Shown piece by piece: positions 56,295 to 64,000 of a DNA stretch of 64,000 nucleotides (positions within the stretch are counted from its first letter, which is position 1; each line of letters starts with the position of its first letter). Below the pieces are notes generated by a model. That model was not told where the DNA came from, ran no database searches, and saw only the letters and a list, made by a program, of their open reading frames with translations. A program made the position numbers and the translations under genes. This DNA comes from the human T2T-CHM13v2.0 reference genome, Homo sapiens, in the NCBI RefSeq assembly GCF_009914755.1, contig NC_060930.1. One strand, 5' to 3'.

Positions 56295-57648
56295 TCAGAT
56301 ATTTTAAAACACGCTACACAGAAATGTTCCACAAGCACCTAAATATTGGGTAGTCTCAATCTCTGGAGAGAATATGGGCTAAGGATAAAGGTTTAGAAAT
56401 TATCAACATAAATATCACTGAAGCCATAGGAATAAATGACATGACCCAGGGAGAATCTACAGAGTTAAAAAAGAAATGAGCATAAGATATTTAAGAACCA
56501 GGCAGAGGAAAAGAAATCTATAAAGGAATCAAGTAATTAGAAGAATTGGAAAGAAAACCAAGGGTCGAGTCATAAAAACTGGCAAGGTCAAACACAAACG
56601 AACAAACAAACAGAAAAAAAAATACTACAGAAATGAAGTGGACAACATGACCAAATGTTTGTAAAATAAAAATTGAGAGGTGTCCATTAGTTTTCACAAT
56701 AAAAGAGGCACTGATTAACCAGGCAAAAACAATTTTAGAATGGCAAAAGGCTACAACGGATTGAGGAGTGAGATGGAGGTGAGGAAGTGGGATTGGTAAA
56801 TGTAGATAATTCTCTTTCTAAATAAAAGGAGAGCTAACACAGTAACTGGAGGGGGAGAGTAAGTTAAGGTTTTTGATTAAAAACCTGATCACATTTAAAT
56901 GGTGATATAGGAGAAAAGGAGGCAAGAGGGAAAGAAGTACAAAAAAAGAAATAATGCGTAAATACTATCTTACAGAAGGTAGGAGTTGTTAGGATTCAGA
57001 ATCTACATGGAAGAAACAGTTATAAATGAGAGAAATGTCTCTTTCCCAACACCACACAGGATGCATAGAAGGATGAATATGCAGTTACATTTGTAGATTT
57101 GGTAACAAGAATTAAAAGCCATATAATGGCTTTTATATAGAACAGGAGATCCTGAGAGTAAATGACAAAGGTAGCATGACAGAGAGTAAATAACAGAGGT
57201 TCTAGAAGACTGGGGAAATTCTGACACAGTTGCCACAGAGAAGGGAAGAGGGGGGTATCCTGGGGAACTGCTGGACATTACTGAGGCTGAAGACAATGAA
57301 CTTTCAGTTGTGGGATCTTTTCCAGCAGCATTCAGTTTTCAGAATATGAACCTAAAAAAAGCAAACAGCATCAATGATCCCAGATTTGGATTCTGACAGG
57401 CGAGTAGAATGGAAGGGATGGAGTTAAAGATACTAGAAATAGACTGCATGAAATGACTGATGGACCAAGCTATCTGTCTAAGCTAGACTGGCTCTAAACT
57501 GCATCAGAAAGTAAACTAACAACAGAAGAGGGACAACATACAGAAAGAAAGCAGGGTCAGGAGACTGAAATGTCAAGAAGCAGGGACAGTGTGACTGACT
57601 AAATGAAAGAAGTTGACACTGGTGAGTAAGTGACATATTTGATTCTTA

Positions 57649-57955
<307 letters not shown>

Positions 57956-57972
57956 GATTTCAGAGGTAAACA

Positions 57973-58125
57973 GCTGGCATGCCACATACCCAAGGATGGC
58001 CTGGCCATCATCACCCAAGTGACCAACCCCAAAGAAGACAAGAGCCAGGTGCCGGGCATGGGCAAGAAAAATACCTGTTCACTACAGAGATAACTGAAAT
58101 GACAGCCAAGCAAAAAGCAAAAAAA
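57973..58125 (+). pseudogene. Short retrocopy of CTDSPL exon 1 plus an unknown tail
   Basis: 57992-58069 translates KDGLAIITQVTNPKEDKSQVPGMGKK versus the recalled CTDSPL N-terminus MDGPAIITQVTNPKEDEGRLPGAGEK; A-rich end; GTAAACA on both flanks. Confidence 0.8.
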
Positions 58126-58145
58126 GTAAACAAAAGAACCATAAG

Positions 58146-61100
58146 GAGAGAGAGAGGCAGAACAAGATAGCCAAATAGAAGGCTCTCATCATCCTCCCCA
58201 CAGGAACACCAAATTTAACAACTATCTAAACAAAAAAAACCTTCATAAGAATCAAAAACCAGGTGACTGATCACAGTACATGATTTTAACTTCATATTGC
58301 TGAAAGAGGCATGGAAGAGGGTAGCAAAGGCAATTCTGAAATTGCCAATACCCTTTCTGCAGCCCCCAGAAGTGGCCACATGTCAAAGGAAAGCACACGG
58401 CTTGAGAGAGGGACAACACAGTGATTGTGAGAATTTGCACTGAAACTCAGTGCTGCCAACACCAGGAAGAACTTAGCCGATGCCCAAAAAGAGGTCATTT
58501 ACACGTGTCCTGGCCAGAGGGCAACTGCTCATCCCAGTAGTCCAAACCTGAGTTTCAGCAATCCTTGACACCACAGGTTAAAGTGCTCTGAGTTCTTAAA
58601 TAAACTTGAAAGGTCTTAAGTAAACTTGAAAGGCAGTCTAGGCCACAAGGACTGTAACGCCTAGGCAAGTCCTACTACTGTGCTGGGGCTCAAAGCCAGT
58701 GGACTTGGAGGGCATGTGAACTAGTGAGACATCCTGTGGGGAGGATGATGAGAGCCTTCTATCTGGCGATCTTGTTCTGCCTCTCTCTCTCCTTATGGTT
58801 ATTTTGTTTACCAAGGCAGCTAAGGGAAGGCTTGTGAAACCCCTCTCCAAGTCCCAGGCAGTGCAGCTTGCAGGTCCGAAAGAGACCCTTTCCCTCTGCT
58901 TGAGGAGAGGAGAGGGGAAAGTAAAGATAACTCTGTCTTTCAACTTAGATACCATCTCAGGGACAGGAAGACAGGGAACTGGGCAGAGTAATGAGGCCCT
59001 CATTCCAGGCCCTAGCTCCCAGACAACATTTCTAGACACACCCTGGGCCAGAAGGAAACCCACTGCCTTTAAAGGAAGGACCCATCCTGGCAGGATTCAT
59101 CGTCTGCTGACTAAAGAGACTTTGGACTGAATAAAACAGCAGCAGTAACCAGGTATTCACACAGTAGGTCTTGGGTAAGACTGAGGTATGCCGGCCTCAG
59201 GTGTGTCTAGCACATTCACTGCTCTGATGGCTACAAAGAGAGACTTCTTCTGCTTCAAAAAAGCAGAAGAAAAGGTAAAGGGGATGTCGTCTTACAGCTC
59301 AGGTACCGGCTTGGCCAGTGGGGTAGAGGACCAAGAGGGCTTTTGGGGTCCCCAATTCCAGGCCTTGGCTCTTAGATGCCATTTCTAGACCTACCCTGGG
59401 CCAAAGGGGAGTGCATTGCCCTGAAAGGTGAGTTGCAGGCCTGGCACCATTCACCACAAGCTGACTAAGGAGGCCTTGGGCTTAAGTAAACATTGACAGT
59501 AGTAGTTAGATTGATAGAGTCTAGCAGCACTCCCATGGGCTTATGGTGGTAGTTGACACGGAGAGAGGCTCTTTTGCCTGGGGAAAAGGAAGAGTGGTAA
59601 GGATTTTGTCTTGTGGTATAGGTGCCAGCTCAGCCACAGTAGAATAAAACACCAGGTAGATTTCTAAGGTTTCCAACTCCTGGTCCTGGCTCCTGGATGG
59701 CATCTCTGGAACCACCCCATATCCAGGGGAACTTGCCACCCTGAAGGGAAGGACACAAGCCTGGCTGGCTTCACCACCTGCTGATTATAGAGCCCTAACA
59801 TAGTCAGTAGCCAGATAGTGGTTACAGTGGGCCTTGGATGAGACCCAGCGCCTGTGCTGGCTTCAGGTCTGACTCAGCACACTCCTACTCCTGGTGGCCA
59901 AAGGGTTATTTGTGTCACCCCTCCCCCAGCTCCAGGAAGCTCAGCACAGAGAGAGACTCCATTTGATTGGAGGAAAGTGGGAGAAGAGAACAGGAGACTC
60001 TACCTGGTAATCCAGAGAATTCTTCCAGATTTTATCCAACACCACCAAGGAGGTACCTCTGTAAGTCTGCAAGAACCACAGCGTTACTAGGCTTGCAGTA
60101 CCCCTTAATGCAAATATGGCTGCATTGACCAAAAACATAGATGATACCCAAATCCCTTCGAATACCAGGAAAGGCTTCCCAAGGACAGGAAACAAACAAG
60201 CCCAGAATGCAAACACTACAATAAATAACTCTTCAATACCCAGACACTGAAAAACATCCACAAGCATCAAGACCATGAAGGGAAACATGGCTCACCAAAC
60301 AAACTAAATAAAGCACGAGGGACCAATCCTGGAGAAACAAAGATATGTGACCTTTCAGATGGAGAATTCAAAATAGCTGTATTAAGAAAACTCAAAGAAA
60401 TTCAAGATAACACAGAGAAGGAATAAAGAATCCTATCAGATAAATTTAACAAAGAAGCTGAAATAATTAAAAGAATTAAGCAAAAATTCTGGAGTTCAAA
60501 AATGCAACTGACATATAGAAGAATGCATTAGAGTCTCTTAATAGTAGAAGTGATCAAGTAATAGAAAGAATTACTAAGCTTGAAGACAGGCTATTTGAAA
60601 ATACACAGAAAAGACAAAAGAACAAAATAACAAAACACAACTAAAAGATTGAAAAAATAGCCTTGAAAGGGCAAATCTAAGAGTTACTGGCCTTAAAGAG
60701 GAGGCAGAGAGACAGATCAGGATAGAAAGTTTATTCAAAGGGATAATAACAGAGAACATCCCAAACCTAGAGAAAGGTATCAATGTTCAAGTACAAGAAG
60801 ATTAGGAACACCAAGCAGATTTAACCTAAGGATGACTACCTGAAGAAATGTAATAATTAAACTCCCAAAGGTCAAGGATACCAAGAAAGGATCCTAAAAG
60901 CACCAAGAAAAAAGAAACAAATGACATACAATGGAGCTCCAACGCATCTGGCACCAGATTTTTCAGTGGAAACCTTACAGGTCAGGAGAGACATAGGATA
61001 TAAAGTGCATGACATATTTAAAGCGCTGAAGGAAAAAAACTTTCACCCTAGAGTAGTATATCCAGCAAAAATACCCTTCAAACATGAAGGAGAAATAAGG

Positions 61101-61200
61101 ACTTTCCCAGGCAAACAAAAGCTGAGGGATTTCATGAACACCAGACCTACTGTACAAGAAATGTTAAAGGTAGTTCTTCAATCTGAAAGAAAAAGGAAAA
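58146..61200 (+). mobile_element. Older L1 (L1PB-like) 5'UTR and degenerate ORF1
   Basis: gaggcagaacaagatagcc 5' end; ORF 60921..61232 resembles the ORF1p C-terminus (YPAK..F..EGEIRTF..KQKL). Confidence 0.82.
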
Positions 61201-61236
61201 ACCCTATATTCATCAGACATAAAGAACACTGAAAAC

Positions 61237-64000
<2,764 letters not shown>

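What the first reader, a model, noticed from the sequence alone, without database searches (positions are those of the whole stretch)
57966..58132. Retrocopy of CTDSPL exon 1 joined to a non-exon-2 tail: possible fossil of an unannotated short isoform
Seen: 57992-58069 reads KDGLAIITQVTNPKEDKSQVPGMGKK, with an unbroken AIITQVTNPKED match to the recalled CTDSPL/SCP3 N-terminus (MDGPAIITQVTNPKEDEGRLPGAGEK). Many differences look like CpG decay (CCG>CTG, CGG>CAG, GCG>ATG), and the start codon is now AAG. Similarity stops at about 58070, where I recall CTDSPL exon 1 ending. About 40 nt of unrelated sequence follows (in frame TCSLQR*), then an A-rich tract at 58111-58125. GTAAACA flanks the unit on both sides (57966-57972, 58126-58132). 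Established: L1-mediated retrocopies keep the 3' end of an mRNA, so a copy of only the 5' end is atypical. Inference: the template was a short CTDSPL transcript spliced to a cryptic terminal exon in intron 1, or one primed internally on an A-tract.
Basis: partly seen in the sequence, partly recalled or inferred. Interest (0 to 1): 0.8.

Follow-up and report, generated by a model that had tools for sequence, protein, structure and literature searches.

The report
CTDSPL exon carried by an L1
An old L1 jumping gene inside an SNX14 intron carries at its front end a spliced piece of the unrelated gene CTDSPL, a rare but already described kind of hitch-hiking that here also marks where the lost parent L1 probably sat.

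Summary
Window 57981-58069 matches CTDSPL exon 1 on chr3 (73/89). The match stops at the exon's splice donor. The "tail" matches one place in the genome, 23.6 kb downstream in the same gene and strand, starting 0-3 nt after an AG.

The A-rich tract and the 3' GTAAACA are templated by the chr3 intron, so they are not a poly-A tail or a target-site duplication. The chr3 match continues to 58145 and abuts the canonical 5' end of a + strand L1 that leaves the window. The 5' GTAAACA overlaps the duplication of a later Alu.

Best reading (0.7): a spliced 5' transduction. An L1 once lay in the CTDSPL intron and was transcribed from the CTDSPL promoter. Exon 1 spliced to a cryptic acceptor about 72-75 nt upstream of that L1, and the RNA retrotransposed to chr6. 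The source L1 is absent from chr3 today. No duplication flanking the whole unit could be shown.

This class was catalogued by Law & Burns (2026). CTDSPL is not in their text or held supplements. It is a new member of a known kind, of modest interest.

The parts
57648..57662 (+). 5' copy of the target-site duplication of a later Alu (AAGATTTCAGAGGTA)
   Evidence: Repeated at 57955-57968, directly after the Alu A-tail (read by eye).
57663..57954 (+). Alu element with A-tail, inserted after the chimera at its 5' junction
   Evidence: Alu-like sequence ending in an A-run at 57945-57955 and flanked by the duplication above. The name Alu is from recall of the family. No repeat library was available.
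57966..58070 (+). Copy of CTDSPL exon 1: about 26 nt of 5' UTR plus codons 1-26, up to the exon's last base
   Evidence: 57981-58069 matches C3:37866352-37866440 at 73/89. Whole-genome E is 2.8e-16. An ungapped extension to about 57966 shows 14 of 15 positions identical or G>A/C>T. One of 370 control offsets scores as high. chr3 continues with gtgagg after the last matched base.
58071..58145 (+). Copy of a piece of the CTDSPL intron, 23.6 kb downstream of exon 1.
   Evidence: 58075-58145 matches C3:37890044-37890115 at 63/72. This is the only other genomic match. On chr3 the piece is preceded by tatttcttttaatcacaaAGtAG. Bases 58071-58074 align ungapped to chr3 with 3 transitions, read by eye.
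58146..64000 (+). L1 element. It runs from its canonical 5' end through a 5' UTR of about 2.1 kb, ORF1 remnants and the ORF2 reverse-transcriptase region. It leaves the window and ends in an A-rich tail about 227 nt beyond it (L034 about 693-727).
   Evidence: 35 of 39 other genomic matches to 58126-58420 begin at query position 16 or later, i.e. window 58141 or later. In 29 of 29 fetched copies the upstream flank is unrelated. Pfam finds Tnp_22_dsRBD in 60861-61232 and RVT_1 in 61467-62198 and 62199-62423. The 3' UTR and tail were read.
58732..58811 (-). Inverted duplicate of 58126-58205, i.e. the last 20 nt of the CTDSPL intron piece plus the first 60 nt or so of the L1, inserted into the L1 5' UTR
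   Evidence: 77/80 identity to the direct copy. All 10 of 10 family copies compared are collinear across this point and lack 65-96 nt that the window has.

Best explanation
This is a spliced 5' transduction, also called an mRNA/L1 chimeric insertion.

Proposed sequence of events, roughly 35-50 million years ago:
1. A full-length, sense-oriented L1 sat in the long intron downstream of CTDSPL exon 1, at about T2T chr3:37890115/6.
2. Transcription from the CTDSPL CpG-island promoter ran through it.
3. The exon 1 donor was spliced to a cryptic acceptor about 72-75 nt upstream of the L1.
4. The resulting RNA (exon 1, intron flank, L1, poly-A) was reverse-transcribed into an SNX14 intron on chr6 by the L1 machinery.
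5. The chr3 source allele was never fixed and is gone.
6. The chr6 copy decayed, most heavily at its CpGs.
7. An Alu later landed at its 5' junction.
8. An 80-nt inverted duplicate of the intron/L1 junction was later inserted into the L1 5' UTR.

Shown: the three segments, their order, their strand, and both junctions to within a few bases.
Inferred: the former presence of an L1 on chr3, and insertion of the whole unit in one event.
For: 1. Exon 1 copy. It ends at the annotated-looking donor (GAAAG|gtgagg on chr3).

2. Next segment. It has a single genomic match, in the same gene, on the same strand, 23.6 kb downstream. It lies before the phosphatase-domain exons, which start at C3:37968802. 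It begins 0-3 nt after AG dinucleotides that follow a pyrimidine-rich run.

3. Junction with the L1. The chr3 homology continues to 58145 and meets the L1 within about 3 nt of where other copies of the family begin. There is no A-tail and no duplication between them.

4. Inverted duplicate. The copy at 58732-58811 contains that junction. This shows that the intron piece and the L1 were already joined when it formed.

5. Geometry on chr3. The 14 nt before the inferred L1 position read AAAAGAAGCGTAAG. That fits an L1 target-site duplication beginning at an A-run. In an A-rich stretch this is only weak support.

6. Published precedent, Law & Burns, Cell Genomics 2026. I read passages and one section. 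They report 17 mRNA/L1 5' chimeras, mostly a first exon in sense orientation on a near-full-length L1, upstream of long introns. In their RAP1GDS1 case, exon 2 is spliced to a cryptic acceptor 15 bp upstream of an intronic L1PA2.
Against: - No source on chr3. No L1 lies at or next to C3:37890115 today. In the 106 kb from exon 1 to the first phosphatase-domain exon, a BLAST with the whole L1 found only three ORF2 fragments and no 5' UTR or ORF1.
- No duplication around the whole unit. The 5' and 3' flanks share no significant similarity (score 13, which every one of 30 shuffles equalled or exceeded). The two short candidates are weak.
- One-event arrival rests on the seamless junctions alone. 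No other species could be examined.
- The acceptor junction is blurred by a 1-2 nt indel, so the AG used cannot be fixed.
- That the chr3 piece lies in intron 1 rests on recall. Exon 2 was not located.
Confidence: 0.7

Rival explanations
1. Template switch during reverse transcription. The L1 enzyme copied an L1 RNA from another locus to its 5' end. It then jumped onto a CTDSPL RNA (exon 1 spliced to a cryptic intronic exon) and copied that to its 5' end. No L1 ever sat in CTDSPL.
For: - No source L1 is present in the CTDSPL interval.
- The L1 part starts at its canonical 5' end, where a jump would occur.
- Chimeric retrogenes made by template switching are described. I saw the search listing. 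Figure 7 legend of Law & Burns lists the mechanism.
Against: - The CTDSPL RNA would need a 3' end, or an internal landing point, exactly at chr3:37890115. That is 5 nt past a GTAAG, with no poly-A and no obvious reason.
- Loss of a polymorphic source L1 is the expected fate of most new insertions (inference).
Confidence: 0.17
2. One reading: a free-standing processed retrocopy of a short CTDSPL isoform (57973-58125), with its own poly-A tail and GTAAACA duplications, that happens to lie next to an L1.
For: - An A-rich tract lies at 58111-58125, and GTAAACA occurs on both sides.
- The tail does map after an AG in the CTDSPL intron.
Against: - The A-rich tract and the 3' GTAAACA are present in the chr3 intron itself.
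- The chr3 homology runs on through them to 58145.
- The 5' GTAAACA overlaps an Alu duplication.
- The copy abuts the L1's first bases with nothing between.
Confidence: 0.03
3. Trans-splicing or RNA ligation of CTDSPL exon 1 onto a separate RNA that carried the L1.
For: Law & Burns favour trans-splicing for chimeras whose gene loci lack an intronic L1, which is 15 of their 17.
Against: - Between exon 1 and the L1 lie about 75 nt of the same gene's intron.
- The acceptor RNA would therefore itself have to come from an L1 sitting in that intron.
- This removes the reason to invoke a second molecule.
Confidence: 0.07

Closest known systems
RAP1GDS1/L1PA2 chimeric insertions (Law & Burns, Cell Genomics 2026, PMC13174262; passages read)
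   Same: Upstream gene exon(s) are spliced from their donor to a cryptic acceptor a short distance upstream of an intronic sense L1. The spliced RNA was then retrotransposed. The new copy therefore reads exon, short intron flank, L1.
   Different: - There the source L1PA2 is still in the intron, it has a promoter-disabling 5' UTR deletion, and two offspring are known.
- Here the source is absent from the human genome.
- The flank is about 75 nt rather than 15.
- The L1 5' UTR is collinear with its family apart from a later inverted insertion.
- Only one copy exists.
The other mRNA/L1 5' chimeras of the same catalogue (MAP3K13, FHIT, PALLD, CREM and others; section read)
   Same: First exon in sense orientation on a near-full-length L1. 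The exon ends at its donor. A long downstream intron follows. No intronic L1 is present today.
   Different: - In those cases the exon is joined directly to L1 sequence.
- Here an intronic flank lies between them, which argues for cis-splicing on a lost intronic L1.
- CTDSPL and SNX14 are absent from the paper's text and from the 6 supplement files held.
SVA_F1, the MAST2 exon 1 5' transduction (search listing only; details recalled)
   Same: A CpG-island first exon is captured by splicing at the 5' end of a non-LTR retrotransposon.
   Different: That element is an SVA, the acceptor lies inside the element, and the chimera founded a subfamily. Here the element is an L1, the acceptor lies in the flank, and no progeny were found.
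U6/L1 and other chimeric retrogenes (template switch or ligation; listing, passages)
   Same: A cellular RNA copy is fused in sense to the 5' side of L1 sequence within one insertion.
   Different: Those usually carry a full-length small RNA joined to a 5'-truncated L1. Here a spliced pre-mRNA fragment is joined to a 5'-complete L1.
Classical processed pseudogene
   Same: An RNA-derived, intron-less copy of exon sequence, decayed at its CpGs.
   Different: It has no 3' end of the mRNA, no poly-A tail of its own and no duplication of its own.

Membership tests
LINE-1 element | ORF1 protein domain | tested here: met
   Pfam Tnp_22_dsRBD, E 4.2e-22, in 60861-61232.
LINE-1 element | Reverse-transcriptase domain | tested here: met
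   Pfam RVT_1, E 5.8e-24 in 61467-62198. A second match in 62199-62423 is weak (22.5 bits, below the 29.6-bit cut-off).
LINE-1 element | Endonuclease domain in ORF2 | tested here: not met
   Only 234 nt separate the ORF1 remnant (ends 61232) from the open frame holding RVT_1 (starts 61467). That is too short for the domain. This copy therefore has an internal deletion. Only 5 open frames were scanned.
LINE-1 element | 5' UTR shared with other genomic copies, starting at the family's 5' end | tested here: met
   2060 first-look candidates, of which 40 were scored. 35 of 39 non-self matches start at window 58141 or later. 29 of 29 fetched copies have unrelated upstream flanks.
LINE-1 element | 3' A-rich tail | tested here: met
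   An A-rich tail follows the 3' UTR at L034 about 693-727, about 200 nt beyond the window.
mRNA/L1 5' chimeric insertion (spliced 5' transduction) | Unique non-L1 sequence abutting the L1 5' end, in sense orientation | tested here: met
mRNA/L1 5' chimeric insertion (spliced 5' transduction) | The 5' piece maps to gene exon(s) that end at a splice donor | tested here: met
   The match ends at the last base before gtgagg on chr3.
mRNA/L1 5' chimeric insertion (spliced 5' transduction) | Splice acceptor at the downstream partner | tested here: met
   On chr3, AG dinucleotides at L003 1493-94 and 1496-97 lie 0-3 nt before the first matched base, after a T-rich run. The exact AG is not resolved. 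No splice-site scoring was done.
mRNA/L1 5' chimeric insertion (spliced 5' transduction) | One target-site duplication and endonuclease motif flanking the whole unit | tested here: inconclusive
   No significant similarity between the flanks. Best candidate: TAAGATTTCAGA (57647-57658) against TAAGCATTCAGA (L034 743-754), 10/12, but 17 nt beyond the tail. 112 of 300 shuffles score as high.
mRNA/L1 5' chimeric insertion (spliced 5' transduction) | Both parts arrive together in a multi-species alignment | not testable with these tools
   Only the human assembly is held (header).
mRNA/L1 5' chimeric insertion (spliced 5' transduction) | Source L1 present in the donor gene (needed for the cis model, not for membership) | tested here: not met
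   No L1 5' UTR or ORF1 in C3:37866001-37972000. There are 3 HSPs, all to ORF2 fragments.
   The A-rich tract aligns to chr3 intron sequence.
   The 3' GTAAACA lies within the chr3-templated sequence. The 5' GTAAACA overlaps an Alu duplication.

The most novel reading that the evidence does not exclude
The 75 nt of CTDSPL intron kept between exon 1 and the L1 are the footprint of a vanished intronic source L1. If so, this copy is direct evidence that 'orphan' mRNA/L1 chimeras, whose gene loci carry no L1 today, can arise by ordinary cis-splicing on a polymorphic L1 that was later lost, rather than by trans-splicing. It would also record a host CpG-island promoter driving an L1 with an otherwise intact 5' UTR.
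Probability: 0.6. Interest if true: 0.45.

Novelty: new member of a known kind. Interest (0 to 1): 0.35.

Why it matters
- It settles the finding. The odd copy that holds only the 5' end of an mRNA is explained, because an L1 provided the 3' end.
- It adds an apparently unlisted case to a small catalogue of 17 cases in hg38.
- It is a useful case. The retained intron flank separates cis-splicing on a lost intronic L1 from trans-splicing. That catalogue leaves this question open for 15 of its 17 loci.
- It shows that a cryptic acceptor in the CTDSPL intron was used at least once in the germline of an ancestral primate.
- It has no evident bearing on present CTDSPL or SNX14 function.

Tried and rejected
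- **Duplication around the whole unit.** I ran local alignments of the pre-Alu 5' flank against the 3' flank.
  - Nothing exceeded the shuffles.
  - Two short candidates are recorded but not accepted.
  - In one search my join of the pre-Alu flank was off by one base on each side. This was corrected.
- **Extra transduced sequence upstream.** I asked whether 57582-57662 could be part of the insert. Window 57440-57662 has no second match in the genome even at E up to 10, so I treat it as native flank.
- **3' transduction.** L034 728-1300 matches only old L1-like repeats, at 67-90% identity over stretches of about 40-210 nt. No near-identical source was found, so I dropped the idea.
- **Source duplication at the 3' end.** L034 715-747 resembles chr3 L003 1540-1573 (score 25; 3 of 300 shuffles as high). 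The same stretch against the window's own copy of that piece scores 16 (247 of 300 as high). Both sequences are A-rich, so I do not rely on it.
- **L1 family includes the GTAAACA... leader.** Rejected.
  - Four of 39 matches start at query positions 3-6.
  - In the three I could inspect (L009, L021, L032) the upstream is merely A-rich flank.
  - The fourth (C7:149856423) had no locus and was not inspected.
- **Literature search for the phrase with a prime sign.** It was not possible. A search without the sign gave one paper, which I did not read.
- **CTDSPL gene structure.** The search gave 7 listings. None was read, and the position of exon 2 remains unchecked.

Full report
**Observation**

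The region was read and translated. Window 57992-58069 gives KDGLAIITQVTNPKEDKSQVPGMGKK, followed in frame by NTCSLQR and a stop.

A search of the window's own assembly (T2T human) with 57957-58125 returned three places only:
- the window itself;
- C3:37866359-37866440, + strand, 84% identity, E 2.8e-16;
- C3:37890044-37890092, + strand, 88% identity, E 7.5e-8.

The first chr3 place holds an ATG-led frame that translates to MDGPAIITQVTNPKEDEGRLPGAGEK. It is followed by gtgagg.

My own alignment gives 57981-58069 = C3:37866352-37866440 at 73/89. Of the 16 mismatches, 14 are transitions, and by my count 9 are CpG transitions. This fits a methylated, decaying copy of a CpG-island exon. The start codon now reads AAG.

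**The tail**

Window 58075-58145 aligns to C3:37890044-37890115 at 63/72. That is 23.6 kb downstream of the exon 1 donor, on the same strand.

Pfam NIF-domain exons on the same strand lie at C3:37968802, 37975581, 37979886 and 37984922. The piece therefore lies between exon 1 and the catalytic exons. I recall this interval as the long first intron, but I did not locate exon 2.

On chr3 the piece is preceded by tatttcttttaatcacaaAGtAG. The join to exon 1 thus falls 0-3 nt after an AG that follows a T-rich run. A 1-2 nt indel in an A-run prevents choosing between the two AGs.

- The A-rich tract (58111-58125) and the GTAAACA at 58126-58132 both have counterparts in the chr3 intron.
- The alignment runs through them to 58145.
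- They are therefore templated. They are not a poly-A tail or a duplication.
- The upstream GTAAACA (57966-57972) overlaps the 3' copy of a 14-15 nt duplication, AAGATTTCAGAGGTA (57648-57662 and 57955-57968). That duplication flanks an Alu at 57663-57954.
- An ungapped extension of the exon 1 alignment shows 14 of 15 positions of 57966-57980 either identical to chr3 or changed G>A/C>T. Only 1 of 370 control offsets in the same GC-rich region scores as high.
- The CTDSPL-derived part therefore probably starts near 57966, about 26 nt upstream of the ATG.

**What follows 58145**

The downstream sequence is a + strand L1.
- Pfam finds the L1 ORF1 dsRBD-like domain in 60861-61232 and RVT_1 in 61467-62198.
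- A genome search with 58126-58420 gave 2060 first-look candidates, of which 40 were scored. Of the 39 non-self matches, 35 start at query position 16 or later, i.e. window 58141 or later.
- In all 29 fetched copies the sequence upstream of a point 8-20 nt before the shared GAGCAAGATGG motif is unrelated to the window and to each other.
- Four matches start at positions 3-6. In the three I could inspect, the upstream is simply A-rich flank.

The L1 therefore begins at about 58145-58148, at the family's normal 5' end. It is joined directly to the CTDSPL intron piece.

The L1 runs off the window. Its 3' UTR and A-rich tail end about 227 nt beyond it (L034 about 693-727).

**One unit or two**

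The junction is seamless. An 80-nt inverted duplicate at 58732-58811 copies 58126-58205, which spans the last 20 nt of the intron piece plus the first 60 nt or so of the L1, at 77/80. All 10 of 10 family copies compared are collinear across that point and lack the extra 65-96 nt. The intron/L1 junction therefore existed when this duplicate formed.

I could not demonstrate a duplication around the whole unit.
- The flanks share no significant similarity.
- The best candidate, TAAGATTTCAGA against TAAGCATTCAGA, is 10/12 but lies 17 nt past the tail and is matched by 112 of 300 shuffles.
- The 3' flank runs into an old L1-like repeat.
- The 5' flank is unique in the genome.

**Mechanism**

The simplest account is a single primary transcript from the CTDSPL promoter through an L1 then lying in the intron at C3:37890115/6. 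Exon 1 was spliced to a cryptic acceptor 72-75 nt upstream of that L1, and the RNA was then retrotransposed.

- The 14 nt before the inferred L1 site on chr3 begin with AAAA. This is the geometry of an L1 duplication, but it is weak evidence in an A-rich stretch.
- Against the model, the human chr3 has no L1 at that site. It has no L1 5' UTR or ORF1 anywhere in the 106 kb examined, only three ORF2 fragments.
- Loss of an unfixed source is expected for most insertions. That is inference.

The main rival is a template switch from the 5' end of an unrelated L1 RNA onto a CTDSPL RNA. That requires an RNA end or landing site at an arbitrary intronic base with no poly-A.

Trans-splicing does not remove the need for an L1 in the intron, because the intron flank is part of the copy.

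**Age (rough)**

- The intron piece differs from chr3 by 12.5%.
- The exon copy differs by 7 of 89 outside CpG transitions.
- The L1 5' UTR is 76-85% identical to its nearest relatives.
- At the 0.17% per Myr used by Law & Burns, this suggests some 35-50 Myr.
- The inverted duplicate has 3 differences in 80, where about 10 would be expected if it dated from the insertion. It looks several-fold younger.

**Comparison with print**

Law & Burns (bioRxiv 2025; Cell Genomics 2026, PMC13174262) catalogue 17 mRNA or lncRNA/L1 5' chimeras in hg38. Most have a first exon in sense orientation on a near-full-length L1. Six end exactly at donors, and the downstream introns are long (section read).

Their RAP1GDS1 case has the same architecture as here. 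A donor is spliced to a cryptic acceptor 15 bp upstream of an intronic L1PA2, and that source is still present (passages). For 15 of the 17 loci no intronic L1 exists, and they lean towards trans-splicing.

CTDSPL and SNX14 do not occur in the text or in the 6 supplement files held as text. My estimated hg38 coordinate strings do not occur either. Stored supplement files may be cut, and my coordinate offset is an estimate.

**Verdict**

This is a real and well-defined feature. It is a new member of a known, recently catalogued kind. Its particular value is the retained intron flank, which points to a lost intronic source L1.

Noticed in passing
window 58732-58811 (against 58126-58205): An 80-nt inverted duplicate of the CTDSPL-intron/L1 junction is inserted into the L1 5' UTR, replacing about 4 nt, with a 2-nt CC overlap at its left edge. 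Identity is 77/80, so it appears much younger than the insertion. It looks like a fold-back or template-switch repair event.
   Followed up: partly
window 57648-57968: An Alu sits exactly at the chimera's 5' junction. Its 14-15 nt duplication starts at the same TT/AAGA site that is the best candidate for the L1's own nick site. The site may have been used twice.
   Followed up: partly
window 61233-61466: The L1 lacks the ORF2 endonuclease region. The ORF1 remnant ends at 61232 and the frame holding RVT_1 starts at 61467. Whether this deletion was already in the retrotransposed RNA is unknown.
   Followed up: partly
window 60004-60066, - strand: The alternative SNX14 exon listed by the hub lies inside this L1's 5' UTR, antisense to the L1. 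It has canonical sites: ct at 60067-68 and ac at 60002-03 on the + strand. This is an L1-derived exon.
   Followed up: partly
L034 728-1313 (C6:86802228-86802813, just beyond the window): Directly after the L1 tail come 38 nt of unclear origin, then an old L1 ORF2-like fragment, and further on a pure A18 run at L034 1296-1313. The old fragment begins within about 40 nt of the younger L1's end, and the 5' flank shows none of it.
   Followed up: partly
L034 715-747 against L003 1540-1573: The end of the L1's A-rich tail resembles the chr3 intron piece just upstream of the inferred source site (score 25; 3 of 300 shuffles as high). It may be a remnant of the source's 3' duplication, or merely A-rich chance.
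   Followed up: partly
window 59002-59055 and 59355-59407: There is a diverged direct repeat of about 350-nt spacing inside the long L1 5' UTR (81% over 54 nt). Family copies show the same kind of secondary matches.
   Followed up: no
L003 1560-1572 (C3:37890103-37890115): On chr3 the piece ends in AGC|GTAAGA, which resembles a splice donor. The chr6 copy keeps the GTAAG as ATAAG (a CpG change), so the RNA was not spliced there.
   Followed up: no
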